Shown one piece after another: positions 394 to 64,000 of a DNA stretch of 64,000 bases. The stretch is from Geosiphon pyriformis uo1 (taxonomy: Eukaryota; Fungi; Glomeromycota). The stretch is from assembly GCA_016748015.1 (NCBI GenBank), contig JAAOMT010000571.1, forward strand, positions 871,095 to 935,094, written 5' to 3'. A program made the translations under genes and the position numbers. Positions within the stretch are counted from its first letter, which is position 1. Each line of letters starts with the position of its first letter. Below the pieces are notes generated by a model, which did no database searches, had not been told where the DNA came from, and was given only the letters and a program-made list of their open reading frames with translations.

Positions 394-1255
394 TATTACT
401 CATAAAAAAAAACAAATATAGAAAATAGCAGACCAATGAGAGAATAGTATTTAGCACGTGAGCACATTGCTCAGCAATGTGAAGCAATGTCAAAAATTAT
501 GGCACATTGCTTAGCAATGTAGAGGAATATTAGAAAACACAGCACATTGCTCAGCAATGTGAAATAATGTTAGAAAATTAGAGCACATCACTCAGCAATG
601 TGAGCATTGCTCAAGAAATCATAGTACATTACTCAGAAATGTGAGCGATCTCATAGAACATCAATTATGTATATATAATAGTAGCATTAGAAGTAGAAAA
701 AGCAGAATTTTTTAGTTAGAAATCTCCCATTCACAAATATTGAATAAATAAATTATTTATCATCCAAATCCACTCTTTACTATCAACACTATATGTTAAT
801 AGCAATTGATACTTAACCACATTGGAACAATAGCTCTTGATCATGGCTATTGATGGATACTAACTTGCATATTGTCTTGGCTCATTTCTTTATTCTTCTT
901 TTATTTGTTTGTCTTAATTGTTGTTATTACTAACTCTATTGAGGATTAACACATGGGGTACTAATGTTAGAATATAGCACTGGTAAAAGACCCAAAAATA
1001 AAAGTAAGACACTCAATTGAGGTTAGCTTACCAGGAAAAACACCAGCCATTATGCTGAAAAAGAAATTAATGAAACTGCAGTTTCGAGAAGCTATGGATA
1101 AAACTATTACCACTAAATCTCTGTCCATTATACAAAGAACTCAACCAAAACCTTCAGATAAACACACCTTCAGATTTTTATCATCAACAACAGCCTTGAG
1201 CACCAAGTTACGGGTTTGTTATTTACTCCAACCAACCAAATAATTACCTGTAACA
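394..1255 (+). repeat. Gypsy-A 5' LTR (862 bp)
   Basis: Direct repeat of 9736-10558; ends CCTGTAACA and is followed by TTTGGTGCTC. Confidence 0.95.
463..643. repeat. Tandem array of five ~40-bp units with 19-bp palindromic core CACATTGCT-C-AGCAATGTG in U3
   Basis: Cores start at 463, 503, 543, 584 and 625; the array recurs in the 3' LTR at ~9805-9985. Confidence 0.9.
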
Positions 1256-3400
1256 TTTGGTGCTCTTTGTAAGATATAATCTTACAGAAAACCAGCACCA
1301 AAAAATAAATCAACAGTGGCAGAATCAGAAAGTATAGGAGCAAACCATTTAGGATTCATGAAATCTTTATTTCAACATTACTGTTAACACTTGGGATTGA
1401 ATCACAATTAGATATCAGCAGAATCAGCCTTCAATTTCTATGTCAACAAAAGAATTGCCTATTTGTTAGGAACACTAATAAACACTGAATCAGCAAAAGA
1501 AACTTTTTACCACAAATTAATCCAAAACACCAGCTTACCAACAAATTATAACTTCACATCTATCATTACTAAGATTAATAAGAAAATTGAACATCACACA
1601 CAACAAAAATACCCAATCACTTATGCAAGTAAAGGCAAAAGAAAATTACAAACACTGGCAATAACACTTCAACGGATCCAACCATCTACTTGAAAGAAAC
1701 ACAGAATTGAATCACCTACAAATCCATCATATCATTATATTCCTGGAAGCACCATCAATATTGCATCAGCAGGCATATCTACATTAAACACAACATTAAT
1801 ATTTGAACAATTTCTATTCCAAAGTAAACAAAAAAAAAAAGATTTATTAGGACCATACAGCATATACTTTGAGGGATTCAAATTGAAATTACCAATGCCA
1901 TCAGAAGTTTGATCATCATCACCTCAACCAGATTTCGGAATTACTGATCCATAAGAACCAACCGAATTGGAAAAAAAACAAGAAGAAAAAGAGGAAGAAG
2001 AATCTAAAGATTAAGAATTTACTTACCAGAACCTGATTACTAAGAACCCAGATATTGGAACCCCAAATTTTCAGACTCAGCAAGATCAAAATTTAGAAAA
2101 TCCAGAAATCAAAACTTCACCAAATCAGAACGACTGAAATCTCGACTTAATTAATCAACAAAACTTACCTCCGAATATCATCATTAATCAGCCACCAATT
2201 GAACCAATTATCAAACTGATTCAACAGCAGCAAATACCTCTTCAACAGCCACCACTACAGCAACTTATCCAGTAACTGGTTCAGCAACTGCAACAACCAC
2301 TTCAACCACCAATGTAACAACAGCAACCAATCATGCCAATGGCTTTTGCATCAATTGCAAAACTTGAGAAGTTTACTGGCGAAGAGAATGATGCTCAGGC
2401 ATGGATCAATAATGTTACCAAAGCCATCATTGCAAATAACTGGGATGATGCAAGAACAATGCAAGTCATTCCATATTTCCTAAAGAATACTGCCAACTCA
2501 TGGTATCATAGCTTGGCCCAGAAACCCCAAAATTTTAATATATTTAAAACAGAATTTCTAAGATATTTTAGTGATAATAACAGCATCAACCACCTGGCAA
2601 GTACTTTTACCATCCTAAAACAAGAGAACACAGAAGCAGTCACCACCTACTTGGAACACTTTCACAGAAATCTGTGCCAAATCTAAACTATCCAAGCTGA
2701 TTACTTTACAGTGCCACAAATCTTAAATCAGTTCATTAGAGGCTTATGCAGCAGCATACTCCAACAAGTACGTCTGATGCATCCAGTAAACTTTCTTACT
2801 GCAGTCACTCATGCTAGAGATTTTGAAGCTGCTGAGTTAGAAGCCAACCATGCCCAAACTGTGAATTTAGTAATGAATGAATCATCTGACTTGGATTCTA
2901 AACTAAAACAATTCAGTGATTCCATTAATCAGAAATTAGAGGGATACTTAGCTGACAATCACCCAATTTATCAGCCTCCTCAATGATGTAATAATCAGAA
3001 AAACACAAATCGTTTCCAAAATCAATTGTGTCTATCATTATTAACAAATCACCCATGACAACAAGAAACATGAATTTGCCACAACTGTAGTAAACAAGAT
3101 CACCTTAGAGCCGATTGCCATGCTTATAGTAACTCACAATCGGGAAATCAATATTGGAATCCCAATCACTGGTTCTCAACTCTGAATTATTACTCAAATC
3201 AAAATCAATATCAATCTATTTACCTGCCAATGATGTTGCCGCCAATCTATCAAACACTGGTATATCAACCTCAATATATATCAACCACAGCCACCCATAA
3301 TATATCAACCACAGCCACAAATAGTCTATCAACCACAACAATTAATTTAAACACCACCACAAAACCCAGCTATGATAACATCTAGAAACCCCAAATTCAG
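1052..3400 (+). pseudogene. gag: Gypsy-A gag (N-terminal helical domain, capsid-like region, CCHC zinc knuckle ~3076-3117)
   Basis: ORFs 1052, 1463, 2333 and 2711 share one frame. KFTGEEND-W / FIRGL retrotransposon-gag pattern; CHNCSKQDHLRADC knuckle. Confidence 0.85.
1258..1275 (+). promoter_or_regulatory. Primer binding site TGGTGCTC (complementary to a tRNA 3' end ..GAGCACCA)
   Basis: TGG lies 2 nt after the LTR end; the same TTTGGTGCTCTT is found in family B. The tRNA identity cannot be determined here. Confidence 0.8.
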
Positions 3401-3717
3401 AGTAACCCAAAACTGGAGATCAGTGATGGTAGTTCACCAACCAATCTCCAGTTCAACAAATTAATCATCAAGATTATGCCAGCAGAGTTTAGAAACTGGG
3501 TATAACTAAAACCCAAGTTCCCAGAACTATTTAAGTCTTTTGATTACTCCAGAAGATGCAGCATCCAGCAAATAGGAAACCAACCAGAAGCCACTTATCT
3601 ACAACATTCTACCAGCTGCCAGCACCAAAGACAAATTACTTGCTGTCATATTCCCATTTAAACTTGAGAAAATCACATCAGTTCCATTATTCAGTAGAGC
3701 CACCAAACCAATAACCA

Positions 3718-4030
3718 TGATGTATATTGATGCCAAAGTTGATAGTCAGTATATTAAACTGATCTTGGATAGTGAATCAGCTGGCAGTATCATCACCAAA
3801 CAACTCATGGATCAATTAGGTTGCTGAGTTGACAGAACTGCCAATGCAAGGATTATTACAGCTGATGGAGCAACCAAAACTCTTATTGGTGAGATTGACG
3901 ACTTCCCATTTGAAGTTAATGACATCATAGTCCTTATCAAAGTTTTGGTAATAGAAGCCACTCAATACCAAGCACTAGTTGGTAATGACTGGCTCACTAA
4001 AACAAATGCCATATTGGATTGGACAACGCA
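3718..4030 (+). pseudogene. Gypsy-A aspartic protease
   Basis: IKLILDSESAGSII (decayed DSG) ... ALVGNDWL. Confidence 0.85.
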
Positions 4031-4466
4031 AGAGCTCTAACTCAGCCAAAATGGTCAACATACATGTATACCAGCCATATGCAGCCACTTCAAGACTATC
4101 AACACACCAGCACCACTCATTGAGTTTAAGGAAGAAGAGAAAAAACCTACCTGGAAAGCCTATCAAGTCTCATAAACTGACAATGATCACAATGAACTAC
4201 TGCCAATACTCTTCTGGGATGACAATGACAATGAAAAAGGAAAACAAAGAGAGGAACATACCTGGGAAACCACCATCAATGCTTGGATTGACAACAGCCA
4301 AAGTGAGTTGCTACCAACAATAAGCTGGAAAGAAAAAGGGAAAGAGAAGAAAAAAGAAGAAAACATATCTGGAGAAATCAAACTCACAGAAGACACAACC
4401 AAAAGATGAACAAGTTCATACTCTGTTTGCCAGCTACTATTACAGCTACCATTTATTCTACTTAAA

Positions 4467-5080
4467 TGCAAAAACTGTGAAAAGAAACTCTCTTTCATGG
4501 GAGCATGGATTGCACCAGATAAAAACCACTAGATGCAAACACATTATTACTACAAACTGTGCCATTGCAAATGCTATGATATCCAAAGTGCCAAGACAAG
4601 TAAGACAATGAACTATGTCTCGCTTGTAGTAAACAGCTACTCAATGAAGAGATGTGAAATGACATTTTTGGTCGAGGAGGAACATGTGACACTTCATGCC
4701 AGTACATAATTCTCATCAGTAACTAGGTGAGTCATGACATGCCCATAACAGCAGCTTGGCATAGAGCAATTAACTGATTGGATGGCTACTCACATGATGA
4801 GAACAAGATCTGGCAAATAGCAAATGCCAAAGTCCAAGGAGCCATGCCCAGTAAAATTCTGAAAGTTAAAAACAACCCACCTGAACAGGTTGACATCATT
4901 CTCATTCCAAATCCAGATGCTTTTCTTGACATAGAAACCAACTCAGAAAACTTCTATGAGCATTACCAAAACTTGGCACCCACCAGAAAAGAACAGGAAG
5001 AGTGTTTAGCACAGCTAAACACTCAATTATGTGACCACTGTTTAATTTTATGTGACTTTCAATATTGTAATGAGTGTGAC
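4467..5080 (+). pseudogene. Gypsy-A Cys-rich putative zinc-finger module between protease and dUTPase
   Basis: CKNC-x24-(C>Y)KLC; CLAC-x19-CDTSC; CDHCLILCDFQYCNEC. Spacing is conserved with family B. Confidence 0.65.
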
Positions 5081-5367
5081 CTCATTTACAACCCACCAAT
5101 CCATATGATCTACATGATCTCAGAAGAAGAAGAACCAATCAGCAGCTGCACATTAGAATCAGAATCAATTTTCAATCCTGACTCAAACTCTAACAATAAT
5201 GATGACAAAAATAATGGTTCCAGCTTTATTTAAAATAGCAATAACAATGACAATGATTCCAACTCAGATTCAAACTCCAATTCAAACTACGAACAATATA
5301 TCACACTTCCTGACCTTACCAAGGAGCAAGAACTAAAATAGTTCAGCAACAATAATAAAAGTATTAT

Positions 5368-5760
5368 GCCAAAACGTGTGCATAATACTGATGCAAGATT
5401 TGATCTGAGATATCCTGGAAAAGATGCCATCAAATTGAAACCACATTCATGCACTTGCATTGATCTGAAAATAGCACTGGAAATTCTAACAACCACAATG
5501 GTTTAACTAGCATTTAAGAGTAGTCTAGCAAAAAGAGAAATTAACATCAGAGGAGAAATAATTGATGCAGAATATGTGGGAAATATCATTGCTATGCTAC
5601 AAAATAATTGAGAAAAGACCTATGTAATAGAGCCAAACAAAAAAATAGTGCAGACAATATTCCTGCCTCTGGTCAAAATAGCTCAGTTAGTATTAGTAGG
5701 AAATAAGGAAGAATTAGGAATAACAGCAAGAGGGATACAGGAATTTGGATCAATGAGTAG
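5368..5760 (+). pseudogene. dut: Gypsy-A dUTPase domain (decayed)
   Basis: DARFDL, KSSLA, IIDAEYVG, KIVQ and RGIQEFGS match decayed motifs I-V of trimeric dUTPases. Confidence 0.85.
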
Positions 5761-6289
5761 AGTAGATATACTAGTTAACATGATGGAAGAAGAGATTATT
5801 GATAAGGAAGAAATTATCTCCACTAGTTGACCAATTTCTATTCTACCATATGACCAGTATATGGTAGTTATAGAAAGGAAAATGAAGGATCAGAACCAGA
5901 TTTTTGAAACAGAAACAGCACATTGTAAATTAGGAAAAATTGGATTCATCAATCTCTACATACCAGCCAGGAACTATAGCCACATCAAAATTCTTATTTA
6001 CAACAACACTGAAAAAGTTATAGAGATACCAAAAGAAACCATCATAGGACATTTAACTATTGAAATAGAGGACCAACCACCAAACCCCATTCCAGACTTT
6101 TTACAGCTTTGTGGATATGTTGACATCATATTACAAACAATATATGGATGAAATAAATGTTATTTGCTCCAACCAGAACAATTAGAACAAATGAACATGG
6201 AGAATCTAAACCCACTCCAATGCATACAGCTAAAGATGTTGCTCAACAAGTTTAATAACATCTTTACCAGTGAGAATGAATTTGGCAAA

Positions 6290-7580
6290 ACTGACATTAT
6301 CTAGCACCAGATCAAAACTGAAGATGCTATGCCAATAAAACAACGAGCATACAGAGTACCATCTGCCAGTCATAAGATCATTTGTCAAGAAATCAACCAA
6401 ATGCTCGACAATGGATTAATTCAGCCATCAATGAGCTTATGGTCATCACCAGTAGTACTCGTCTGGAAAAAAAATGGGAAAATCCACTTTTGCATAGACT
6501 ACAGAAAGCTTAATAGAGTCATGCATGGAGACAGCAATCCAACTTCACGGATTCAGAAATTATTTGATGCTTTTGATGGAAACAAATGGTTCTCAATATT
6601 AAATTTAAATAGTGGTTACTGGCAAGTAGCCATGGATTCAATAGACAAAGAAAAAACTACATTCACAACATAGGAGGGAAATTTTGAATTCGAAGTGATG
6701 CCATTTGGCTTAACAAATGCTTCAGCCACATTCCAGTGGCTAATGGAAATAGTATATACTGGCTTATTGTGAAAATCAGTAGTCGTTTATTTAAATGACA
6801 CCAATGTGTTCTCCAAAACATTTGATAATCATTTGCATCATCTACAACAAGTGTTTGAAAGGCTACAATGAACAGGACTAAAGTTAAATGCCAATAAGTT
6901 CTTCTTTGGCAAGACAGAATTAAACTTTTTAGAGCACATAGTAAGCAAAAACAGCATCAAAATGGATCCAAAAAAAATAGAAATAGTCAAGAACTTTCCA
7001 GTACCAACCAATGTGACAGAGTTAAAATTATTCTTGGGATTTGCAAGCTATTATCAATGCTTCATCAAAAACTTTTCCAAGATAGCCCAACCATTCAATC
7101 ATCTCCAAACCAAGAATGTAAAATATGAATGGACAGAAGCACAACAAGAAGCTTTTGATATTCTAAAAAGAAAGCTTATACAAGCTCCAGTACTAATCTA
7201 TCCAAATTACAACAAACTGTTTATTATTACCACTAATGTATTAAGCCAAGCATTGGGAGCAGTAGTATCACAGAGAAGACTGAATGGAAGAGAACATTTA
7301 GTCGCATATGCCAGCCGAGATTTAACTCCAGCTAAAAGAAATTATAGAACACCAGAATTAGAACATTTAGCAATTTATTGAGCAGTCATGAAATGGAGTG
7401 AATATTTGAGCCAGAAGTTTGATATATACATGGACCACAAAGGATTAACAGCACTTCATAAACAAGAATGTGGAGATGAAAGACAATTAAGATAGAAAAT
7501 GACACTATCACTATATACTTACACTATACATTATAAAAAAGGAAAAGACAATGAAAATGCCAATGGTTTGTCATGAATAA
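6290..7580 (+). pseudogene. pol: Gypsy-A reverse transcriptase and RNase H
   Basis: WSSPVVLV, FCIDYRKLN, SGYWQV, MPFGLTNA, YLND (YLDD mutated), FLGFASYY, VAYASR..ELEHLA. Several stops. Confidence 0.95.
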
Positions 7581-7799
7581 GACAAATCTAAAAACATCTC
7601 AACATAAAAATATAACAAAACCAGAGCAAATCCAACAAAAATATAACAAAAAATGAATATACAAAAATATCAACAACTACAATATTATATAAATACTCAA
7701 CTGTTCAAGAAGAAATTATCTCAAAATAAGTGAAATAATATCAAACAACAATCAAAACATTTTATCAATTATAAAAATATACTTTACCAGAAAAACAGA

Positions 7800-9025
7800 A
7801 AAAATCCAGATCAACCAATAAAAGTCATCACAGAACTAAAGAAAGAGACAATATTATTCAACATACATTCAGATCCAACAGCAGGACATTTTTATAAAGA
7901 AGCAACTATGAAAAAAACAAGAAAAAGATACTATTAGCCATCAATGTATCCAGATATTATTCAATATGTTCAGAATTGTGATGCTTGTCAGAGAAGAGGT
8001 GGAACAAAATCCAGTAAACCATTAAGACCAATCAAAGTGGGACAACCATTCGACCATATTGGAATTGACTTAGTCGGATCAGTAACAATCACCAGCAGAG
8101 GCAACAGATACATTGCAGTAGTCATGGACTATCTTACAAAATGGCCAGAAGCAAAAGTCATTCAAAGAGCAGATGCAAAATCCGTTGCCGAATTCATCCA
8201 TCAAGATTTAATTTGTCAACATGGATGTCCAAAAGAACTATTATCAGATCAGAAAACTCACTTTGTGAACAGAACATTAGCAGAATTAAGCCAGAGATTT
8301 GGAATAAAAAAACCATTATCATCACTATACCATCCACAAATAAATGGCTTAGTTGAAAGATTTAATAGAACACTGTATAAAGCAATTGCCAAAATCAGCC
8401 AAAAAAATCAAGACAAATGAGATTTGTTTATACCATCAGTATTATTTGCTTATTAGACAATAAAACAAGATACCACACAAGCAACACCATTTAAATTGGT
8501 ATATAATAAAACAGCAACATTACCAGTTGAGATAGAAATCAATACATATCCAGCTGAACCAATAACAGAAGATAATTTCCAAAAAACATTGTTAAAAAGA
8601 ACATATGACTTAATGGAAACACTAAAAAACAGATAACAGAAAGCAGCTGATAATATCTAAAAGACACAAAAAAAGCAAAAAGCATAACATGATAATCAAC
8701 TACCAGATAAATCAGTGAAATTCAAGATTGGAAACAAAGTACTATTACATTATACCAAAGCAGAAAAACAATGGAGTGGAAAATTCGACCCCAAATGGGA
8801 CAGACCATTTCACATAGAAGAAATTTTTGGAAATAGAACTTATAAATTAAGATGGGACAACAAAATTTTAACCAAAGCAGCACATAGTGATCGACTGAAA
8901 TCATATCACCAAATAACATCATCATCCAATAACATTCCACAATTAAGAGTACAATAAATACTAGTTCAACCAGATAAGATTTCACAAGATCTGGAACCAA
9001 TCATAATCATTGGACCAAAAACATA
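7800..9025 (+). pseudogene. Gypsy-A integrase (HHCC, rve core, GPY/F-like tail)
   Basis: H..GHF, CDACQ, GIDLVG, LLSDQ, YHPQINGLVERFN, PKWDRPF. Confidence 0.95.
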
Positions 9026-9086
9026 AAATCAAACAATAAAAGAGTATATAAAGATACAATATATGTGACAAAGACAACCAAGAAAA

Positions 9087-9722: not shown

Positions 9723-9735
9723 AAGGAGGAGATAA
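9720..9735 (+). promoter_or_regulatory. Polypurine tract of Gypsy-A
   Basis: AAAAGGAGGAGATAA abuts the TGTTAC start of the 3' LTR. Confidence 0.85.
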
Positions 9736-10558
9736 TGTTACTTATAAAAAGAAAACAGATATAGAAAATAGCAGACCAATGAAAGAATAGTATTTAGCAC
9801 GTGAGCATATTGCTCAGCAATATGGAGCAATGTCAGAAATTATGACACATTGCTCAGCAATATGGAGCAATATCAGAAAACATAACACATTGTTCAGCAA
9901 TATGGAGCAATGTTAGAAAATTAGAGCACATCACTTAGCAATGTGAGCATTGCTCAAGAAATCATAGCACATTGCTTGGAAATGTGAATGATCTCATAGA
10001 ACATCAATTATGTATATATAGTGGTAGCATTAGAAGTAGAAAAAACAGAATTCTTTAATTAGAAATCTCCCATTTACAAATATTGAATAAATAAATTATT
10101 TATCATCCAAATCCACTTTTCACTATCAACACTAGATGTTGATAGCAATTGATACTTAACCACACTGGAACAATAGCTCTTGATTATGGCTATTGACAGA
10201 TACTAACTTACATATTGCCTTGGCTCATTTCTTTATGTTATTTCTTTTATTTGTTTGTTTTAATTGTTGTTATTACTAACTCTATTGAAGATTAATGCAT
10301 GGGGTACTGACATCAAGATATAGCACTGGTAAAAGACCCAGAAATAAGGGTAAAACACTCGATTGAGGTTAGCTTACCAAAAAAAACACCAGTCATTACG
10401 CTGAAAAAGAAATTGACAAAACTGCGGTTTTGGGAAGCTACAGATAAAACTATTACCACTAAATCTCTGTCTATTATACAAAAAACTCAACCAAAACCTT
10501 CAGATAAACACACCTTCAGATTTCCATTATTGACAACAGCCTTGAGCCACCTGTAACA
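9736..10558 (+). repeat. Gypsy-A 3' LTR (823 bp, ~44-bp U5 deletion)
   Basis: Copy of 394-1255; followed by TSD GCAC. Confidence 0.95.
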
Positions 10559-10562
10559 GCAC

Positions 10563-43600: not shown

Positions 43601-45562
43601 TGGGATGAAGATGGGAGAGAACAATCTGGATCAGAGCACAAGAAATCTAATCTTGCCAGGACAGAACTAACTGAAGCTTCCAAAGCAGACATTTTAGATT
43701 CTAAACCACCCATTTTGGAGGTAAAAACCCTTGAACCACTCGAACTGAGAACAGCAGTAGACTCATCAGCACCAGAAAAGGGGGGAGCAGATACAGTCGG
43801 CTCATCATCCAGAGTCATATCCAAATTCACAACCAAAACCACAGACACAGAAACAACCAGAGACACACTTCCAAAAAGAGGCACCAATGGCACCAATTTG
43901 ACAAAACTGAGTTTTTTCAAAATACCAAAAACCTGATCTGCTAAAATCTCTAAAGAGTGTTTTAAAGCTGCCAAACAATTGCCTAATTGAGACACGACAA
44001 GAGGATTAGACATTAATAAAGAAGGAACCAAACCAGGATACAAATCAGTGCCAAAAGAACCAGAGGAAAACACACGAGAGGTGACACCACCAGCAACTTA
44101 AGTCCAAGTTTTATCAGTGAAAGACACAGGACATGAAATAAGTGCTTGCTTTTTTTTATAAATGCCAGCCAATCGAACTCGATCTTGATCAAAAATTACC
44201 CATTTTCCATGAACACCAAAATTCCCACCCACAGGACAGATGGCAGTGACATGACCAAATTGTTCACACTTGATACAACAGGCCAAACAAAGACCAGCCC
44301 AGTGCAAGTTCACAATCTTGAAAACTGGAACCAAACCAATAGCAGCCAATTTGGCCACTTTACTTTCAAAACAGATTACAGCACACCAAACACAAGCATA
44401 TGATGTAAAATCATGGCCAATAACACAAGTTTTCCCACCATAGGTCTCCACCAAGTCCGAAAGATCATGAGCAGTCATACCAACTGGAAAAGTATACAGC
44501 AAAGCACGATAATGGTTTCTTGAAATCCATAATTCTTTGTCATTTACCACTAAAGTCACATGCACAGAATCTTTTCTCACAAGAACAGATCACTTAGAAG
44601 CAACCAAACAAGCAATTTCAGTTGATTCAAATTCAACTACAGCTTTTTGCTATAAACCAATCAGCTGCATCCTGATAAAAATAACCTTGCCAAATTTGGA
44701 AAACACAGTCTCTATTGCTGATTTAAGAAGATTGACTGAAATCTCCTTGATGATTATCTTCTAATCTGTATGGCTGTTTACTTTTTTGAGATCAGTGTTG
44801 ACAACAACTTTTTCATTGATTGCCATTAATTTGGCTTTATTCAAACTAGATTCACTTATGAAGGTCAATCTTATGATTCCAGGAAATTTTGAGGGAGTTG
44901 AAGCACTCCCAAAGCCATCAATATGATAAAAAATTTTCTTAATTGAAATCAACTTATTACTATTAGTTTTTCCAGACACATTTGACAACTCTACATCCAA
45001 GGCAAACAATTTAACTGGTTCAAAAGCGCAATGTTCCAAAACACGTGAAATCACAAGTGGCCACTGATTGGATCCAGCAAATTTAGCTCCAGGAAGCACC
45101 AACTCAGTATTGTCGTCACTCATGCTTGCGAAGGAAATCGCCTTTGGTGGCTGTCCCAGAATGAAGGTTCTTGTTCATGTTTTCCTAGGAGTTGTATCGT
45201 CTTCTATTTCATCAGTCTCAGAAGTGTTGGGGTCCATATAACTCGTCTTCTCAGCAACTGTGCTTTCTAAATTCTCGGCATCTAACACTTCACTAACACC
45301 CACTTTCTCACTATTCACCTCATTTCCTCAAGATCTCTACAGTCCAACACCATCACCATATAGTATATTCATTAAGAATAGGCTGTCTGACAAGTCCACA
45401 ATGCCACCAGAAACACCAGACAACTTTGTTTTTTTGTATAAAGAACCATGCAAGTATACTCTCAACGTGTACTTTAATTTTTTTACTGCCAGACTGGAAC
45501 CCCAACCCAGCCAAACTCAAACTTAAAGTGCCAGCAGAAAAGCTCACTAGATCTATAGGCAC
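43597..45562 (-). pseudogene. LINE-4 ORF1
   Basis: Fragments 45353-45562, 44761-45123, 44098-44580 (CIKCEQFGHVTAIC CCHC knuckle) and 43597-44073 ending SQ*. Confidence 0.85.
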
Positions 45563-52367: not shown

Positions 52368-52761
52368 TGAGAAGAGGTTTGTAAGGACACACTACTTGCT
52401 AAAACCAAATCATTAAAGCAGGCAGATAAGCTCAAAACAGATTTGGAAAGTCCTTCCAATATTTTCTCCAACTTAACAACATGGAGGGATGCCGAAAGAT
52501 CCACAATTGTAGCAGTCTCATTACTAGTGGCTTCACCCAAATCCACTCCCATCATTGTATTCTCTTTTTGAATCTGAAATGGAGGGGTCACCAACAGCTG
52601 ACATCTAAGGCTAGGCTGAGAAACCACTAGTACAAGTGAATCTAACCTCTTAGTCAACTCACTAATCTGACCTGTGAGGTTGATGAGACTGCTTTCAATA
52701 CTGATTAGACAAATCTCTAAAACACTACTAACAGGAGGGATAGATTTACTACTATTGATGG

Positions 52762-53576
52762 TGTTACCAGAGGTTTTTGGTCTCTTTTCTTAAATGTTGG
52801 TAATGTTGATTTGCTGTGAATTCATGTTTTCAGGAAGTAGTTGAACCTCCAATAACTGAATTTATCTTCAAATTATCTTCTATAATCTGAACTGCTGGGC
52901 TTATAAATGGAATGGCCAATTTCTTGCCAGTTATTTTATGTAGTTATGTTGTAGTAAACATCAACTCTTTCCCAGGAATTGCTCGTCTGGAAGCTCACTA
53001 AAATGTGTAGTTACTTTGCTGTGAAAGTCAACTCTTCTACAGGAATCTTGTCTGTAGGCTACCCTAATGATTGTAATAAGAAAAAAAAAGAAAAANNNNN
53101 NNNNNNNNNNNNNNNATCTAAAGTAAGATACATTTTCCAAAAGAGAAAAGCTCTTTTTTTATACAACTTGTTGTAGTACTAGTCTATGAACTTGCACTTT
53201 TTCTCTTTGCTCAAATTTCGGCAAACTAAAAATACATTTTGATGAACTACAAGTTATTTCGCTAAACTATTGATTAATTTGGGTGAACTATTCATAATTT
53301 CGGCAAATTTCTGTAAATTTCGGCGAATTTCTTATAAATTTCGGCGAATTTCTGTAAATTTTGGCAAGTTTTTGAATGTTACAAAGTTCAGGGTATTGTG
53401 TAATTTGATCATCCTACTTTCTGTTATACTAATTAGATTATTTTAATTGAATTGTGATATGTGATGATTGATTAAATAATAAATGATAATTTGAAATGAT
53501 ATTAATATACTGATTAATTATAGAAATTATAAGGGTAATTTCATGCTAATTAATAGCTAAAATTCTACTGGTAACA
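52762..53576 (-). repeat. Gypsy-B 3' LTR (contains assembly gap 53096-53115)
   Basis: Copy of the 5' LTR; preceded on the minus strand by PPT GAGGAGGAGATTA (53577-53589). Confidence 0.95.
53096..53115. other. Assembly gap (20 N)
   Basis: Run of N. Confidence 1.
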
Positions 53577-54264
53577 TAATCTCCTCCTCAAGACTGAACT
53601 TCGTCAAAGTCCAAGCACTATCTGTAATATTGAGATAGTGATCTAAAATAATTGAAGTAATCTGGTCTGAAAATTGTTGAAATTTCAGTTCTGTGAGTTT
53701 ACCAATGTATTGGACTTTCATTGATTGCAGTATTGGATTTTGTAGAACATTTTCACAAGTATTAAACAAGTCATAGAGTCTAAGAGCTGCTCTAAGTTTG
53801 TAGTGAGTGTTTGTTGGTTCAGCTGCTGTTTTGAATTCATTGTGGATTTGTTTTTGTATAGCTTCAGGAGTGAGATTTGTTGCTTCAAGTTCCAGTTTTC
53901 GTTCATAAAGTGTTTTTCCAATGTGAAAGTATTTATAGATAGGGGTGTGTTCATTGTTCTGTTCATTGAAAAGTAGTAGAAGTTTTTGTTGCATTGTAGC
54001 ATTTGGTGGAATGTCAATAGGGGCAATTAAAAGATTTTCTTCTAGTGCTTGCTTCAAAAGTCTTGGTAATCTATTTTCAGAGTGACTTCTTGTTTTTCTT
54101 CTATAGGGGTAATAGTTCTGTAAATGATTTGCTACTGGGACTGTGGTTTCTTTTTGAATGTAATTAATTTGACTTCCATTAATTGTTATAGATAAGTCAG
54201 GGAGTGTTTTCAAGGCTAACATTAATTTTTGGGATATTTGTTGAATGTTTTGGGGAATAATCAT
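53557..54264 (-). CDS. Gypsy-B ORF3, uninterrupted 235-aa protein of unknown function
   Basis: Open ATG-to-stop ORF after integrase, running through the PPT into the LTR; homologous to Gypsy-A ORF3. Confidence 0.75.
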   Translation of the reverse strand: MIIPQNIQQISQKLMLALKTLPDLSITINGSQINYIQKETTVPVANHLQNYYPYRRKTRSHSENRLPRLLKQALEENLLIAPIDIPPNATMQQKLLLLFNEQNNEHTPIYKYFHIGKTLYERKLELEATNLTPEAIQKQIHNEFKTAAEPTNTHYKLRAALRLYDLFNTCENVLQNPILQSMKVQYIGKLTELKFQQFSDQITSIILDHYLNITDSAWTLTKFSLEEEIMLPVEF

Positions 54265-54409
54265 GATAAAATTGACTATTTATCAAAAGAGAGAATAAAG
54301 AAAATTATTTTTGGATATGGGGTTTTTATTTGTTTTTGGGTTTGGGTGTTTTGTAATTATTTACTATTTTTGTCTTTGTGTTTTTATTAGAGAATTATTG
54401 TAAAATTTA

Positions 54410-55700
54410 AGTGTTCAAGTTTGGTTGTTGTTCTATTATAATTATTGGTTCTAAATTTTGGGGAATATCTTCAGGATTAATTAAAGAGGAATGTGTACCA
54501 ATTTGTGGAATTAATGGTTCAGGATTGTTTTTGGAACAATAGTGTTTCAATCTGTCTCTATGTGCAACTTTTGCTAATATTTTGTCATCAAGTCTTAACT
54601 TGTATGATCCATTGTCTAGAATTTTGTGAATATAAAATGATCCATCCCATTTGTTTTCAAATTTCCCACTCCATTGTTTTTCAGCCTTAGTTCTGTGTAA
54701 GAGAACTTTATTTCCAACTTTAAATTCATTGGTAATAGGTGGTAATTTGTTGTCATGTCTTTCTTTTTGTTGAGCTTGGGAATGTTCAATATGAGTTGTT
54801 GCTATTCTTCTTTTTCCTTCCAGTGTACTAAGAAGAGTGTAAACTCTTCTTTAAAGTGTCTCTTGAAAGTTTTCTTCATTGATTGGTTGCACTGAATATG
54901 TTTCCACTGTGAAATTAATTGGTAATGTTGCTGTCCTTCCATAAGTAAGATCAAATGGTGTGTGTTTTGTAGTATCTTGTTTTAGTGTTCTGTATGTTAG
55001 TAACACTGATGGAATAAAGATATCCCATTCCTGCTCAAAGTCTGTTGAGACTTTGGCTAGAGATTCACACAATGTTCTATTAAAATGTTCTATAAGTCCA
55101 TTTGTTTGAGGGTGATAAGGTGATGATAGAGGTCTTTTGACATTGAACCGTTCACAAATTTCTTGTATCAAGTTGTTCACAAAATGTGTTCCTTGATCAG
55201 ATAAGAGTTCAATTAGGCATTCATGTCTACAGATAATGTCTTCATAGATGAAATTTGCTACTGATTTTGCATCTGCTCTTTGGATGGCTCTAGCTTCAAG
55301 CCATTTGGTAAGATAATTCACTGCAACTACAATATAACAATTTCCTTGGGTTGTGATAGGTAATGGTCCAACTAAATCAATTCCAACTCTGTCAAAAGGT
55401 TGTCCAACTTTGATTGGATTTAAAGATTCTGTGGGATGAGTTCCTCTTCTTTTTTGACAGCTATCACAAGATTCTACATATTGTTGAATGTTTTTTTGCA
55501 TGTAAGGCCAAAAATAATGTTCAAGGGTTCTTTGAATTGTTCCCTCTTTTCCCAAGTGTGCTGAAGACGAATCTGTGTACATGTTATATAAAATTGTTTC
55601 TTTTTCATTCTCTTGTACTAATCTGAGTGGCTGGTTTGGTTTCTGTGATTTTTATAATAGATTTTGTTCTGGTATATGAAATATTGTTTTGATTGGTGTT
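54410..55700 (-). pseudogene. Gypsy-B integrase
   Basis: AHLG..YFWP..CDSCQ, GIDLVGP, LSDQG, YHPQTNGLIE, WDGSF tail. Confidence 0.95.
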
Positions 55701-55849
55701 GTAAGCAGTGTTTTTCACTTGGAGACCAGTTTTCTGGCATGGTAAGAGTCTTCAAATAATTTTTAAGATTGCTGTAATTTCTGGGATCTATTCTTGTTTG
55801 GTTATTTTGTTGGTAAGTTGGTAAGTTGTGGTAGAATTGTTGTTGGTAT

Positions 55850-57170
55850 TAATCTTATCTCATTCTTGAAAGGCTATCAACATTGGTATGTAGTTTTTCT
55901 GGTTTGTAATATACAATATATCTGTAGTCTGCTAGGAAGTCATTTCATTGAGACTGTTTGGCACTTTGTTCAGTTTTCTTTTTATTGAGCCATTTGAGGC
56001 CAATGTTGTCTGTTATTATGTCAAATTCTTTTCCATTTTTCAGATATTGTTGAAAATGTTTAAGAGCCCAAATAACTGCGGCAGCTTCTAATTCAGTTAA
56101 GCCGTATTTTAGTTCTGTTGGTTTGAGTGTTCTACTAGTATAAGCGATGACTTGTTCTTGCTCCTTTTCATCTATTTGTGATAAGATAACACCAAATGCT
56201 ATGTGTGAAGCATCAGTGGCTAGTTGAAATCGTTTGTTGAAGTCTGGGTAAGCAAGAACTGGAGCTGTTGTCAGTTTTGTTTTGAGAGTTTTAAATGCTT
56301 TTTGTTGTTCTTCAGTCCATTTGTATGACACATTTTTATTGGTAAGATAATTGAGTGGTTTGGCAATTTCTGAGAATTCTTTGATGAATTTTCGATAATA
56401 GGAGGCTAATTCTACAAATCCTCATAGCTCTGTGGTATTTTTTGGGGTTTGGAAGTTTTAGACAGCACTAATTGTTCCAGGATTTGGTTTGACTCCATCT
56501 TTGCTAACCATGTGTTCAAGAAAGATTAAGCTTGTTTTTCCAAAGTGATATTTCTCAATATTCAATTTTAATCCTGTTTTTCATAGTCATTGAAAAACTT
56601 CTTGCAGATGAATAAGATGGGCTTCAAAGCTTGGTAAGTATACATCAGTGTTATCAAGGTAAACAACTACTGATTGCCATAAAAGTTTTTCATATACAAC
56701 ATCCATGAGTTATTGAAATGTTGCTGGTGCATTGCAGAGTCCAAAAGGCATAACATTGAACTCATAGTTTCCTCCTTGGGTGGTGAATGCTGTTTTGAGT
56801 CAGTCTTTTGGATCCATTTCGACTTGCCAGTATCTACTTTCCAAGTCTAAAGTTGAGAAGAACTTGGCTTTTCCTAGAGCATCTAGCATGTCATCAATTC
56901 TTGGAAAAGGGTAGGCATCTCCAATTGTAATACTATTCAGTTGTCTATAATTGACACAGAATCTGATTTTTCTGTTTTTCTTTTTAACTAAAACTACTGG
57001 TGAGGCCCAAGGACTTCTTGATGGTTGAATTAATCCGTTATTGAGCATTCTTTGGACCTCTTCTCTGATAAATTGGTGGCTGGCAGGTGGCACTCAATAG
57101 GCTTGTTGACATTTGGTGGAGCATCTCCTGTATGAATCTGATGTTGAACAATGTTTGTTTTTCCCAAGTC
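55850..57170 (-). pseudogene. pol: Gypsy-B reverse transcriptase and RNase H
   Basis: PWASPVVLV, FCVNYRQLN, YWQV, MPFGLCNAPATFQ, YLDN (YLDD mutated), TDAS, ELEAAAV, TDN. Confidence 0.95.
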
Positions 57171-57694: not shown

Positions 57695-58085
57695 GTCCAG
57701 TTGAACTGAAACCTTGAGTTTCTCTTTCACTTTTTCCCAATTGTTCTCTGTTGTTTATTAATTGTAAACTCGAAATGTTGATTAAGGGTAAGTAAATTGC
57801 TTGAGCAATTTTTTCAGCATGTTCAATTTTGAATGGTTTGTCTGTCTTATTCTGTAACATAATGGTAATGTCTCCAGTGTATTCTGCATCTATAATTCCT
57901 CCTCTAATATTGATTCCTTTGTTTGCCAATAATGATCTGGAGGCAATTTGAATCATTGCTCCTGGTGGAATTTCAAGAGCAATTTTGAGATTGATTTTTG
58001 TCAAAGATTTTGGTTGGAGAATTAAAGTATCTTTTTCTGGGTATCTTAGGTCATATCCAGCATCAATTTTGTATGCTTTTTCTGG
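57695..58085 (-). pseudogene. dut: Gypsy-B dUTPase domain
   Basis: DAGYDL / SRSLLA / GIIDAEYTG / EKIAQ / RETQGFSSTG within ORF 57465-58640. Confidence 0.93.
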
Positions 58086-58239: not shown

Positions 58240-58845
58240 AGAGCATAATATTCTAAACACCATTGGTCGTTACAAGGCATAATACATTCTTCACACAATT
58301 GAATGTTCATTTGTTCTAATTGTTGAATTTGAGCTTCTTTGGTTGGATATGTGTGGCTTGCAATTTGGTGGTATGTTTCTACTTCATCTTCATAATCAAA
58401 TCCAGCTAATTTCATGGTATACTCAATATATTCAGCTTCTTTCATTTGGTGGACATCTTCTTGGGTGGCTCCATTAATCAATGCCATTGGTAGGTTAAAA
58501 ATCATTTCAGCATTGTGAGAGTAGTGGTAAAGTTTATTGAAAGCACTGTTGTATACTGCATTAAATGGTGTTCCTCTTCTGACTTTTTTCGAAATTGATA
58601 GAGCATATTGACAGGTTTGATCACATACTCCTCCTCTCATTGCTATATCAATCTAATTGCATTCTTCTAATAGCATTTCTCCACATGTAAGGCAAGGTGT
58701 GTTGTCCCATTTTCCACTTCTTTTTGGAGATCCAAATCATTCTCTATGGCATGTTTTGCAAAAGTAACAGGTATGAGTTTTATATTCCTCTTCTGGAGAA
58801 ATACATGCTCCTATTGATGAAAGTTTTTTGTTGCAATCTTTGCAT
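58240..58845 (-). pseudogene. Gypsy-B Cys-rich putative zinc-finger module
   Basis: CKDC-x24-CKTC; CLTC-x19-CDQTC; CEECIMPCNDQWCLE(C>Y). Confidence 0.7.
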
Positions 58846-59118
58846 TTGAGTGGAATATAGGGTGGTTGTTTCTGTGGTTCTGGTATAGAATATCTAACTT
58901 TCTTTTATCCCCTTGATTCTTCAAAAATTTCTTGTTCTGTTTCTTCAGCCCAATTGGATGTTAATCCAAGAGCCATGTAGGTTTCAGTAAGTGGCATTTC
59001 TTTCTTCTCTTCAAATTCAAATACTGGAGCTTTTTTTGATCATTTGTTAAAGGTACCACAGGTTGCAGAGTACTATGGTATATTGTTCTTGGTATGAGAT
59101 TTTAAGTTCTTGAGTTTT

Positions 59119-59421
59119 CTAGTTCAGGTTTGCATTGGCCTTGAGAAGCCAATCATTTCTAACTAAAGCTTGGTATTGGGGTGCATCTATAACAAGAACT
59201 TTAACTGGAATGGTGATTCTATCAATTGAAAAAAAGAAATCATCAATTTCTCTTACTGGGGTCTTCTTCATACCATTAGCTGTGACAATAACTGTTTGAG
59301 CTGGTCTGTCTACATTTTGTTTGAGTTGTTGCATCAGCTGGTAAGTGATAATACTTCCAGCTGATCCATTATCTAAGATTAAGTGAATGGGTTTTCCTTC
59401 CATTGTAGCTTCTGTGTACAT
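59119..59421 (-). pseudogene. Gypsy-B aspartic protease
   Basis: IHLILDNGSAGSII ... ALVRNDWL. Confidence 0.88.
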
Positions 59422-59699
59422 AGCAGTAATTGCTTTCTGTTCATTGACTGCTGCATTACTAAGCTGAAATGGTGATTTATTTGCTTCAAATTCAAATGGA
59501 AATATGTCTGACAGATTGGCATTTTGGGCAATTTGAGCTGGTGGAATGGTGTGATTGGAAGGGTTTGATCTTGGTGCTGCAACTTCACCTTCAGAAAGTA
59601 CAGTTTGTTGAAAATCCGATTCCTCTGGTATTGTAAGATAACTGGGTTGAGTGTGATAGTGATTGGGTCTTTGCTGACCCGAATTTCAGGGAACCAACT

Positions 59700-61515
59700 G
59701 GTTATTTGAATTGATTCTGTTGTGGTTATTCTGCAATTGATTTTGGGGTGTGAATTGGTTATGTTGAACTAATTTTCTTACTGGTATTTGATATTGTTGA
59801 GTGGGTAGTGTCTGATATGGCTGAATTGGTAAAAGTTGTTGATATTGTTGCTGTATTGATTGTGGAGCTGGTGGATAGTAGTTTTGATTTTGTGGTCTTG
59901 GTGAATAATAGGTTGGTGGTGGAGATTGGTAATAGGATTGTTGTGATAAAAAGTAACATTGATTACTCCTGTTTTGTTGGTCTCTTTGTTATTTCCTACA
60001 ATCTCGTTTCCAGTGTCCTGGAATTCCACAATAATAACAATTTTGAGATTGGTTGTTGGATGGTAATCCAAAATTGTTTTAGTTGCATTATTGTGGGGGT
60101 TGATATCTTTGTGGTTGTTGTTGCTGTTGTTGTTGGTTTGTGAAGTAGCTTTCAACTTTTTTTGTGAGTTGGTCTATCTTCTCTTCAGCTGCTGAGCTGG
60201 TTTCTCCAATTGCAAGATTTATAAGTTTGGTGTGATTTGCTTCTTCCATTGCTATTTCATAGCTCTTTGTATGTCTAATAGCAGTTGCTAAGTTTGCTGG
60301 AGCATGTGGACAGACTTTCTTAATCAGTTTGTCTTTTAACCCTGCTATAAACTGATCCAGAATTTGAGCATCAGAATAATAGTTATTGGTTTCCAATTGT
60401 CGGATTTGTCTGAGAAGTTTGTTAAATCTTCTAAGATAGATCATAACAGTTTCAGATGTTTCTTGTTTGATATTGCGAAAGTGGTTTCTGAGAGTGATAG
60501 AGATATTGTTATCAGTGAATTGTTATAGAAAAGCATCTTTGAATGCTTGCCAGTTTTCAAATGGTTCTTCTAAGTTTTCAAATCATTTTTCTGCTGTTTC
60601 TTGGAGAAAGTAGGGAATTGCTTTGAGCATTTTTGCTGCAATCCAACCATTTGCATCTCCTGCTTTTTGAACCTTGTCAAGCCATTCTTGAGGACTGGTA
60701 TTATTGTCTTCACCAGTAAATTCTGGAATTTTTGCAATGTAAGCAGTTGCCATTTCTTCTTCATTTTCTGTAATTTCTTCTGGTTCTGATTTAGTTCCTT
60801 CACTTTCCAAGCTTTCTGAAAGATTACTTTTGTTTTTTTGTAAGTAGTCAATGATATTGGCACTTGTTAATATTGGTTCCTGCTGTTGAGTAGGGTTTCT
60901 AGGTGACTGAAAATCTTCTGGTCTGGAGAAACAGTTGAGTGGTGAATTTAGTGTTTGTGATTAAACAAGTGAAATTGGAAAGAGTGTAATAGAAAGTGAT
61001 AATTTGACACTAATTCCTTGTTCAGGTGTTTGCAAGTGTTTGGCAAGTGTCTTTTGTAGTGTTGGAGTGTTTGAAGTGGTTCTTGAGTATTGCTTCAATC
61101 TTTGTTTGCCTTTGTTGCTTGTTTCTGTTTCTGATTCAAAGTCAAAAGAGTATTTAGACTGTACTGGGTATTTTTCTTCACAATACTCAATAATGTTAAA
61201 ATTAAGTTCTTGGAAGTAGGTGGCAAGTGTTTCACTGTTCAGGTCTTCTGTTCCCAATTGTAAATAGTGCACTAAATTATTGTAGAGGTTGCTTCTAACT
61301 TCTGAGATGTTGTAGTTTCCAAAAAGATAATTGTTGATGCGGTTTTTAATGTATTGGTATACTGATTTCTTAACAACTTCAATTCCGTCTGGAATGTTGA
61401 ATCTTTGCTTGCAGTGGGTGTAAATTGACTGGTAATACTCTAGAGTTGCTGTGTCTGGTGTGGTCACTACTTTGAATTTGTTGTTGCTGTGTTATTTCCG
61501 TGGAAGAGCACCAAA
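59700..61515 (-). pseudogene. gag: Gypsy-B gag
   Basis: N-terminal domain 60961-61467, KIPEFTGED..WLDK, QILDQFIAGL, CYYCGIPGHWKRDC knuckle. Confidence 0.88.
61496..61513 (-). promoter_or_regulatory. Gypsy-B primer binding site TGGTGCTCTTCCACGGAA
   Basis: 2 nt downstream of the 5' LTR on the minus strand. Confidence 0.8.
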
Positions 61516-62528
61516 TGTTACTGGAGGTTTTTGGTCTCTTTTCTTAAATGTTGGTAATGTTGATTTGCTGTGAATTTACGTTTTCAGAAAGTAGTTGAAC
61601 CTCCAATAACTGAATTTATCTTCAAATTATCTTCTATAATCTGAACTGTTGGGCTTATAAGTGGAATGGCCAATTCCTTGCCAGTTATTTTATGTAGTTA
61701 CGTTATAGTAAACGTCAACTCTTTCCCAGGAATTGCTCGTCTGAAAGCTCACTAAAATGTGTAGTTACTTTGCTGTGAAAGTCAACTCTTCTACAGGAAT
61801 CTTGTCTGTAGGCTACCCTAATGATTGTAATAAGAAAAAAAAATAAAAAAATAAAAAAAATGTAAAAGAAATAGGATTTTATCAAGAGAAACGTTTTCTA
61901 TCCAGGCCTGGAGTCACTAACAGTTTACTGAAATTGGTAGTTAATTAATTTCAAAATGTTAGTTGAGTTTTGAGGATTTTCCAAGTGCAATAATTAAAGA
62001 ATTTGGTTTTTTGAATTATTTGATATTTATTTCTTTTTGTGTGTATAGGAATGATTCTAAGTGATAAATCTAAAGTAAGATACATTTTCCAAAAGAGAAA
62101 AGCTCTTCTTTTATACAACTTGTTGTAGTACTAGTCTATGAACTTGCACTTTTTCTCTTTGCTCAAATTTCGGTGAATTAAAGATACATTTTGATGAACT
62201 ACAAGTTATTTCACTGAACTATTGATTAATTTGGGTAAACTATTCATAATTTCGGCGAATTTCTGTAAATTTCGGCGAATTTTTTATAAATTTCGGCGAA
62301 TTTCTGTAAATTTTGGTGAGTTTTTGAATGTTACAAAGTTCAGGGTATTGTGTAATTTGATCATCCTACTTTCTGTTATACTAATTAGATTATTTTAATT
62401 GAATTGTGATATGTGATGATTGATTAAATAATAAATGATAATTTGAAATGATATTAATATACTGATTAATTATAGAAATTATAAGAGTAATTTCATGCTA
62501 ATTAATAGCTAAAATTCTACTGGTAACA
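61516..62528 (-). repeat. Gypsy-B 5' LTR (1013 bp)
   Basis: TGTTAC..GTAACA termini; contains a 21-22-bp tandem array AAATTTCGGCGAATTTCTGT at ~62247-62322. Confidence 0.95.
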
Positions 62529-62532
62529 ATGG

Positions 62533-63990: not shown

Positions 63991-64000
63991 CATATTGAAT

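What the first reader, a model, noticed from the sequence alone, without database searches (positions are those of the whole stretch)
53557..54264. Conserved non-env third ORF in the env position of two divergent Gypsy families
Seen: both elements carry a 211-235-aa ORF between integrase and PPT (9087-9722 and 53557-54264). The two LTR families look unrelated, yet the ORF3 proteins align end to end: MEIPDHIHIIAQQL.ALSQQP..IEIIVNNQTIYYQ vs MIIPQNIQQISQKLMLALKTLP.LSITINGSQINYIQ; YYYYQLGQKL vs YKYFHIGKTL; RTIYQLHNIF vs RAALRLYDLF; NQWGRI vs QYIGKL. No signal peptide, furin site or TM segment is visible, so it is not a recognisable envelope. ORF3-B is fully open while gag and pol of the same element have many stops; ORF3-A has a single C>T-type stop. 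Inference: a retained accessory gene, possibly an anti-silencing or trafficking factor suited to a heavily methylating genome.
Basis: partly seen in the sequence, partly recalled or inferred. Interest (0 to 1): 0.8.

Follow-up and report, generated by a model that had tools for sequence, protein, structure and literature searches.

The report
Non-envelope third gene of fungal retrotransposons
Two related jumping genes in what is likely the soil fungus Geosiphon carry an old, conserved extra gene where retroviruses keep their envelope gene; its protein has no membrane features and no known relative, and it likely acts in the nucleus as a regulator of the element itself.

Summary
The ORF is real. 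ORF3-B (53557-54264, minus strand) and ORF3-A (9087-9722) align at 22% (E 2e-6; 0 of 2000 shuffles reach the score) although their DNA no longer aligns. They belong to one family found in at least five Geosiphon pyriformis lineages and three unnamed metagenomic lineages. One metagenomic locus shows the same layout: RT-RNaseH, stop, integrase with its own ATG, ORF3, PPT, LTR. So this is an inherited gene of one dUTPase-bearing Gypsy clade, not a gene shared by unrelated elements. Subfamily changes avoid conserved columns (P about 0.001), but the open frame of copy B is not itself significant (P 0.12). ORF3-B runs through the PPT into the LTR. There is no signal or membrane segment and no invariant catalytic residue. 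AlphaFold gives a confident helical core with no significant fold match. A PY-type nuclear-signal motif and family-specific palindromic U3 arrays suggest a nuclear regulator, possibly anti-silencing; this is inferred, not shown. Non-env extra ORFs are a known kind, and this scan noted similar third genes in other genomes (homology untested). New protein family, function open.

The parts
53557..54264 (-). ORF3-B, 235 aa, open; N-terminal helix plus beta-hairpin (1-39), disordered basic linker (40-63), helical core (about 65-210); C-terminal tail overlaps PPT and LTR
54088..54126 (-). PY-NLS-like basic motif of ORF3-B (residues 47-59, H-x5-PY-RRKTR) in the predicted disordered linker
   Evidence: motif definition PMC2408616 abstract
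53635..53943 (-). conserved helical core of ORF3-B (residues 108-210; pLDDT 79-95 by blocks of ten)
54265..54408 (-). AT-rich spacer between integrase stop and ORF3 ATG (144 nt, 22% GC, no ATG, no strict TATA)
53580..53589 (-). polypurine tract of element B, inside ORF3-B
52762..53576 (-). 3' LTR of element B (assembly gap of 20 N at 53096-53115); target duplication CCAT follows at 52758-52761
54409..55791 (-). integrase of B (H2C2, rve, weak SH3/Tf2-1; no chromodomain hit), separated from RNase H by stops; one stop and one frameshift inside
55855..57090 (-). RT-RNase H of B, 7 internal stops
57696..58085 (-). dUTPase of B (PF00692, E 2e-22), between protease and RT
58300..58900 (-). Cys-rich region between protease and dUTPase (approximate limits)
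   Evidence: a stored homologue holding it has no Pfam hit (P0187)
59122..61400 (-). gag (zinc knuckle) and protease of B, broken by stops (5' limit approximate)
61498..61515 (-). primer-binding-site-like sequence (TGG start) after the 5' LTR of B
61516..62528 (-). 5' LTR of B (TGTTAC...GTAACA); target duplication CCAT at 62529-62532
62248..62313 (-). U3 tandem array of B, 20-bp unit x3.2 with the palindrome TTCG-C-CGAA
9087..9722 (+). ORF3-A, 211 codons, one TAG at codon 16 (9132-9134)
9027..9086 (+). spacer between integrase stop and ORF3-A ATG, with TATATAA about 42 nt upstream of the ATG and no YAG
9723..9733 (+). polypurine tract of element A, just after the ORF3-A stop
9736..10558 (+). 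3' LTR of A; target duplication GCAC at 10559-10562
9809..9976 (+). U3 tandem array of A, 40-bp unit x4.2 with the perfect palindrome ATTGCT-C-AGCAAT
7653..9026 (+). integrase of A with its own ATG, in another frame than RNase H (RH frame closes by 7591); many stops
2333..7591 (+). gag, protease, Cys-rich region, dUTPase-like region and RT-RNase H of A, broken
394..1201 (+). 5' LTR of A (ends decayed; 90% identical to the 3' LTR); target duplication GCAC at 390-393

Best explanation
ORF3 is a conserved, non-envelope third gene of one dUTPase-bearing Ty3/Gypsy clade, and its predicted small helical protein likely enters the nucleus and likely regulates the element's own expression, possibly by binding the repeats in its LTR. 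Shown: position, homology across lineages, lack of membrane features, constraint on the protein between subfamilies, decay of the individual copies. Predicted: a soluble helical core behind a helix-hairpin module and a disordered basic linker. Inferred: separate expression from an internal start (its own ATG behind an AT-rich spacer, no shared splice acceptor), nuclear import through the PY/basic motif, action on the element's DNA or RNA, and the U3 palindrome arrays as targets. Whether it activates, counters methylation or escorts the integration complex is open; a DNA-binding regulator of the LTR is the reading I rank first.
For: Family: 208 hits among 474 candidates for ORF3-B, the 120 listed all G. 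pyriformis; 72 representatives by profile; of 20 looked up, 17 Geosiphon and 3 unnamed metagenomic. Tree: B, A, C, D, E clades plus metagenomic rows, mostly 19-40% identical between lineages, P0192 11-24%. L001 repeats the layout. ORF3 DNA of A and B does not align (z 0.6) while the proteins do. B1/B2 fixed differences: 5 of 46 deeply conserved columns against 41 of 119 variable ones, Fisher P 0.002, residue-matched permutation P 0.001. Highest 19-residue hydropathy 0.19-1.29 in 10 of 10 proteins; 0-3 Cys. None of the 46 deeply conserved columns is D, E, H or C. R/K/H-x2-5-PY in 7 of 10 proteins, in a stretch with pLDDT under 50. Family-specific U3 arrays with palindromes in A and B and a thrice-repeated 7-mer in L001. 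Precedents: nuclear aORF protein of maize Grande (PMC7264820); VANC targets in tandem repeats (PMC5735166 abstract).
Against: No direct evidence of expression, localisation or binding. No significant fold or family match, so DNA binding rests on analogy: best Z 4.7 of 48,161 chains; Spo0J (Z 3.5, rmsd 5.8, 95 aligned) and KorB (Z 3.4, rmsd 5.1, 95 aligned) are at background level. The DUF1016_N lead failed. pI runs from 4.9 to 9.3, so the family is not uniformly basic. The PY motif is absent from 3 of 10 proteins, including the window's A copy; most basic residues lie after PY, not before; a 25-kDa protein may need no NLS. U3 tandem repeats are common in LTRs and may bind host factors (own knowledge); the palindrome excess is significant only for A (0 of 100 null runs), not for B (P 0.13, 0.65) or L001 (P 0.39). 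ORF3 evolves about three times faster than integrase (dN 0.83-0.98 against 0.27-0.34). The column test defines 'conserved' against the B1 residue, which favours the result somewhat.
Confidence: 0.5

Rival explanations
1. ORF3 is an escort or adaptor for the particle or integration complex: it binds the separately encoded integrase or Gag and brings the complex into nuclei or to target sites, without binding LTR DNA itself.
For: NLS-like motif; integrase is a separate ORF in A, B and L001, so it needs another route into the particle than the Pol polyprotein; retroviral accessory proteins with such roles are cited in PMC7264820.
Against: No interaction evidence. Integrase is far more conserved than ORF3 (55-62% against 23-29%), which fits a fixed partner less well than a changing target.
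Confidence: 0.2
2. ORF3 is a suppressor of host RNA silencing or another host-directed counter-defence factor that works by protein or RNA binding, not at the LTR.
For: Fast evolution under constraint; a related fungus methylates TEs and makes small RNAs from them (10.1101/2021.03.30.436303, passages); strong C>T/G>A decay in this window.
Against: No match to a known suppressor or RNA-binding fold; the NLS-like motif points to the nucleus.
Confidence: 0.15
3. ORF3 is a captured host or bacterial gene piece (such as a ParB/KorB- or DUF1016-type helical domain) that rides along with little or no function for the element.
For: Faint DUF1016_N hits (E 0.037, 3 of 47 members) and phrog_23683 (best E 4e-4, 8 of 47); an Atlas feature hit to an unnamed Mucoromycota cluster (0.93), which may simply be this family.
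Against: Profile-profile test against 10 DUF1016_N sequences: probability 0.6%, score 15.3, within the shuffled range (max 18.9). A passenger would not keep an open, alignable frame after its DNA has become unalignable, nor show the B1/B2 pattern. No non-element homologue was identified among the 20 representatives looked up.
Confidence: 0.1
4. ORF3 is a highly diverged env or cell-to-cell movement protein.
For: It sits in the env position and orientation.
Against: No signal-like or membrane segment, 0-3 Cys, no conserved R-x-x-R; all-helical soluble model; no shared splice acceptor in the spacers.
Confidence: 0.05

Closest known systems
Sense additional ORFs between pol and the 3' LTR (aORF-3S) of plant Ty3/Gypsy elements such as Athila and Bagy2 (Vicient and Casacuberta 2020, PMC7264820)
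   Same: Position and orientation; carried by many copies; function unknown.
   Different: Fungal host; no transmembrane segment, so not env-like; much less conserved than the element's integrase; no sequence match found; integrase itself is a separate ORF.
Grande gene23 and Retand TRP28 antisense aORFs (PMC7264820; PMC11963269 abstract)
   Same: Accessory gene between pol and 3' LTR proposed as a nuclear, DNA-binding regulator; gene23 has its own promoter.
   Different: Those are antisense and plant; ORF3 has no Transposase_28 or SMC hit in Pfam.
Non-env ORF3s of dUTPase-bearing bdelloid rotifer LTR elements (Vesta, Juno; PMC5408684)
   Same: dUTPase-bearing LTR elements with a third ORF that is not env.
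   Different: Rotifer ORF3s are GDSL esterases or DEDDy exonucleases with invariant catalytic residues; this ORF3 has none and is predicted all-helical in its core.
VANC anti-silencing proteins of Arabidopsis VANDAL transposons (PMC5735166 abstract)
   Same: Element-encoded, diverging protein beside tandem repeats that differ between related families, in a methylating host.
   Different: VANDALs are DNA transposons of plants; no homology shown; binding and demethylation by ORF3 are untested.
Retroviral 3' accessory genes overlapping the PPT/U3 (HIV nef, MMTV sag; recalled, no call)
   Same: B-type ORF3 reads through the PPT into U3.
   Different: Only six codons lie in U3, and that tail is a by-product of a DNA motif read in different frames in A and B; no homology.

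Membership tests
Ty3/Gypsy LTR retrotransposon (host element) | Domain order protease, RT, RNase H, integrase | tested here: met
Ty3/Gypsy LTR retrotransposon (host element) | LTRs with TG...CA ends, PBS, PPT, target duplication | tested here: met
   B complete; A has decayed 5' LTR ends but matching 4-bp duplications
Chromovirus | Chromodomain after integrase | tested here: not met
   Pfam scan of the integrase tails of B and L001 gives only weak SH3_Tf2-1 at E <= 0.01
Retroviral/errantiviral env | Sense ORF between pol and 3' LTR | tested here: met
Retroviral/errantiviral env | N-terminal signal peptide and C-terminal membrane anchor | tested here: not met
   Hydropathy only (no dedicated predictor): best 19-residue mean 0.19-1.29 in 10 of 10 proteins
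Retroviral/errantiviral env | Conserved furin site and Cys-rich ectodomain | tested here: not met
   R-x-x-R in 2 of 10 proteins at different places; 0-3 Cys
Retroviral/errantiviral env | Fusion glycoprotein fold | tested here: inconclusive
   No significant structural match to anything
Retroviral/errantiviral env | Spliced subgenomic mRNA | not testable with these tools
   No run could be listed; spacers share no YAG acceptor near the ATG
aORF-3S (additional sense ORF before the 3' LTR) | Sense ORF between pol and 3' LTR | tested here: met
   A, B and L001
aORF-3S (additional sense ORF before the 3' LTR) | Present in all or most copies of the family, not a one-off capture | tested here: inconclusive
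   2 of 2 full-length elements in the window and 208 protein hits; the share of all copies could not be counted without the genome
GDSL or DEDDy ORF3 (bdelloid type) | Invariant catalytic S/G/N/H or D/E/D/D residues | tested here: not met
   No D, E, H, C or S among 46 deeply conserved columns; no such Pfam hit among the families shown
VANC-type anti-silencing factor | Tandem repeats in non-coding DNA that differ between related families | tested here: met
   common in LTRs, so weak
VANC-type anti-silencing factor | Binds these repeats and lowers DNA methylation of the element | not testable with these tools
   needs experiment
DUF1016_N (YhcG N-terminal domain) | Significant profile-profile match | tested here: not met
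   hhalign probability 0.6%, within shuffles, on 13 against 10 sequences; single YhcG 0.1%
ParB/KorB-type helix-turn-helix domain | Structural match above background | tested here: inconclusive
   Z 3.4-3.5, rmsd 5.1-5.8, 95 aligned, tied with unrelated rows
PY-NLS | C-terminal R/H/K-x2-5-PY in a disordered stretch | tested here: met
   7 of 10 family proteins; 34 of 74 full-length stored copies keep it, most others show P>L/S; pLDDT < 50
PY-NLS | N-terminal basic or hydrophobic epitope and Kap104/transportin binding | not testable with these tools
   Most basic residues lie after PY; binding needs experiment

The most novel reading that the evidence does not exclude
ORF3 is a family-specific DNA-binding protein of a new helical fold that recognises the palindromic tandem arrays in its own LTR and keeps the element active against host methylation: a VANC-like anti-silencing system in a fungal LTR retrotransposon, in a clade that also expresses integrase as a free-standing gene.
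Probability: 0.2. Interest if true: 0.8.

Novelty: new variant of a known kind. Interest (0 to 1): 0.5.

Why it matters
LTR elements cover 41% of the G. pyriformis genome (PMC11952901, passage), in a lineage that methylates its transposons. A conserved accessory gene in these elements is a direct candidate for how they spread despite silencing, and it comes with a testable target (the U3 palindromes). It also means that hundreds of 'hypothetical proteins' annotated in this genome are transposon ORF3 copies. The three-part layout (gag-pol without integrase, integrase, ORF3) raises a separate question of how integrase is made and packaged. Extra ORFs of unknown function are a known kind, so without a functional result this is a new family rather than a new principle.

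Tried and rejected
Selection on this copy from its open frame: not significant. DUF1016_N homology: rejected at profile level. Fold searches with the first, poor model (pLDDT 42; best Z 6.4 to a designed protein) and the second model (Foldseek PDB and viral: 0 matches at E <= 0.001; VIA wide best Z 4.7; VIA second look best Z 3.7): nothing above background; residues 1-80 were barely tested. Pfam, PHROGs, NCBIfam and PDB sequence scans: no ORF3-domain hit over a cut-off. phrog_23683 (unknown function) was not followed up. Phage and viral-contig searches: no relative. ESM Atlas on P0192 and P0195: unnamed clusters, TM under 0.4 by query. Expression: no RNA holder listed. dN/dS between A, B and L001 came out at 0.45-0.65, but dS is near saturation and the alignment is protein-guided, so I give it little weight. 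A third ORF3 or integrase in the AT-rich relics of the window: none found (best z 3.3 of 32 comparisons). The C-terminal peptides SLEEEIMLP and GAQY as protein motifs: rejected, they are one DNA motif read in two frames. Complex prediction (ORF3 homodimer) was not available. No whole genome was held, so copies could be studied only as proteins. Literature: five-term searches gave 0 papers; some searches listed 1-4 papers each, none with a title or abstract start about this ORF; the Geosiphon genome papers were not listed or read, and no supplements were read, so a description there or in repeat libraries cannot be excluded.

Full report
Observation. The ORF at 53557-54264 lies on the minus strand and gives 235 aa without a stop. 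The ORF at 9087-9722 gives 211 codons with one TAG at codon 16. They align over nearly their whole length: blastp E 2e-6, 22% identity, and 0 of 2000 shuffles reach the local score. Their DNA does not align better than shuffles (z 0.6), whereas integrase DNA does (z 114).

The elements. B is a full-length minus-strand element: LTRs 62528-61516 and 53576-52762, ends TGTTAC...GTAACA, about 3-4% apart, duplication CCAT, a PBS-like stretch and a PPT. A has LTRs 394-1201 and 9736-10558, 10% apart, duplication GCAC. Both read gag, protease, a Cys-rich region, dUTPase (PF00692, E 2e-22 in B), RT, RNase H, integrase (H2C2, rve, weak SH3), ORF3. RT-RH is 47% and integrase 56% identical between A and B, ORF3 23%. 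They are two families of one clade with unrelated LTRs. In A, ORF3 stops just before the PPT; in B it reads through the PPT and ends 20 nt inside the LTR. The DNA just upstream of the LTR is conserved between A, B and L001 and is read in different frames, so the C-terminal peptides are not protein motifs.

Source and spread. All 120 listed of 208 hits for ORF3-B (474 candidates) and all 7 hits for ORF3-A (74 candidates) are hypothetical proteins of Geosiphon pyriformis, up to 91% identical, so the window is likely from this fungus. A profile search of 1.84 billion representatives gave 72 hits. Of 20 looked up, 17 are Geosiphon and 3 unnamed metagenomic proteins. A tree of 17 rows shows well supported Geosiphon clades B, A, C, D and E, with the metagenomic rows on long, weakly placed branches. 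The one metagenomic locus I could fetch, L001, has RT-RNase H, a stop, integrase with its own ATG (one internal stop), a 316-nt AT-rich spacer, ORF3, and the PPT and LTR start inside the end of ORF3. A further profile search listed only Geosiphon among its best 120 of 241; the rest were not shown.

Selection. Copies decay: 77 of 80 differences between the A LTRs are transitions, CpG is at 0.15-0.18 of expectation, and 68-70% of amino-acid deviations within subfamilies are reachable by one C>T or G>A change. Constraint shows between lineages. Among 37 B1 and 41 B2 copies (kept from 104 stored proteins of 200-245 aa; the others had gaps, low coverage or belonged to other families), fixed differences fall on 5 of 46 deeply conserved columns and 41 of 119 variable ones (Fisher P 0.002; residue-matched permutation P 0.001), and on 16% of core against 62% of linker positions. 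Caveats: 'conserved' is scored against the B1 residue; variation within subfamilies is also lower at conserved columns (P 0.005 and 0.046), so it is not pure neutral decay or codon effects remain; the stored proteins are those that gene callers found open. Pairwise dN/dS of 0.45-0.65 is weak evidence, as dS is near saturation.

The protein. The best 19-residue hydropathy is 0.19-1.29 in 10 of 10 proteins, with 0-3 Cys and no shared R-x-x-R: not an envelope. None of 46 deeply conserved columns is D, E, H or C: no sign of an enzyme or zinc finger. No fold match stands out. Spo0J and KorB DNA-binding domains span the core but only at Z 3.4-3.5. Faint DUF1016_N hits were tested by profile comparison and failed. 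The linker holds R/K/H-x2-5-PY in 7 of 10 proteins, mostly followed by basic residues; 42 of 74 full-length stored copies keep PY and 34 the whole motif, most others showing P>L or P>S. This matches the C-terminal part of the PY-NLS definition (PMC2408616, abstract only).

Expression. No RNA holder was listed, which is no evidence. The spacers before ORF3 are 22-24% GC; A and L001 have a TATA-like box (42 and 126 nt upstream), B has none; only B has a YAG near the ATG. An internal start is therefore somewhat more likely than an env-type splice, but neither is shown. In all three elements a stop follows the end of RNase H within six codons, and A and L001 have an ATG at the integrase start (B has ATA there). 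I read this as a separate integrase gene; decay in a Gln-rich linker is the alternative, since L001 and B keep the same frame across the junction.

Possible targets. Each family has its own U3 repeats: A a 40-bp unit x4.2 with the palindrome ATTGCT-C-AGCAAT, B a 20-bp unit x3.2 with TTCG-C-CGAA, L001 a 7-mer three times. The palindrome excess is significant for A only. VANC targets are described as tandem repeats that vary between related elements (PMC5735166, abstract only), but LTR repeats are also ordinary host-factor sites (own knowledge).

Mechanism. Shown: an inherited, constrained, non-membrane third gene. Inferred: a separately made nuclear protein acting on the element's own nucleic acid, first choice a regulator binding U3 (0.5); escort of integrase or particles (0.2); host-directed silencing suppressor (0.15); passenger (0.1); env-like (0.05).

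Comparison and novelty. Extra ORFs between pol and the 3' LTR are a known kind (PMC7264820, parts 1-2 of 3 read; PMC11963269, abstract; PMC5408684, abstract and section 3.3). Passages seen of PMC3248453, PMC11952901, PMC5911963 and 10.1101/2021.03.30.436303 do not mention this ORF; I did not read them whole. Two five-term searches found nothing. dUTPase in fungal Gypsy elements has been reported before (recalled, no call). This scan's notes describe similar third genes of dUTPase-bearing Gypsy elements in other genomes; sequence look-ups found no look-alike, so their homology to this family is untested. Verdict: real, a new protein family and variant of a known kind, function open; interest 0.5.

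Noticed in passing
window 7574-7655 (+), 55789-55860 (-); L001 772-801: Integrase appears to be a separate ORF: a stop follows RNase H within six codons in all three elements, with an ATG at the integrase start in A and L001. Unusual for Ty3/Gypsy and not found in one literature search.
   Followed up: partly
window 58300-58900 (-), about 4440-5200 (+): Cys-rich region with several CxxC pairs between protease and dUTPase in both elements; no Pfam hit for a stored homologue.
   Followed up: partly
window 9702-9741 (+), 53571-53608 (-); L001 3085-3122: About 35 nt upstream of and including the PPT are conserved as DNA across A, B and L001 regardless of reading frame: a likely cis-element for reverse transcription.
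   Followed up: partly
window 47364-48346 (-), 29849-30821 (+): Two solo LTRs related to element B (about 15% apart from it); the first is flanked by CTGG/CCAG, which looks like a decayed CCGG duplication.
   Followed up: partly
   Followed up: no
window 19322-19690, 26671-28396, 36112-38233 (+): A heavily decayed relative of element B, split by later insertions; 60-73% of its C's are changed to T in all four dinucleotide contexts (local GC 11-13%), stronger than and unlike CpA-specific RIP.
   Followed up: partly
window about 10560-16300, 19837-26600, 28428-36000 (+); 38600-45100, 48400-52700, 62800-64000 (-): Several broken LINE-like elements with endonuclease and RNase H domains; element A and element B both appear inserted into such elements.
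   Followed up: no
window 53096-53115: Assembly gap (20 N) that replaces about 220 bases of the 3' LTR of element B.
   Followed up: yes
P0150-P0194 (Geosiphon annotations): Many annotated 'hypothetical proteins' are chimeras of ORF3 with gag, protease, dUTPase, integrase or LINE pieces, likely made by gene callers across nested decayed elements.
   Followed up: partly
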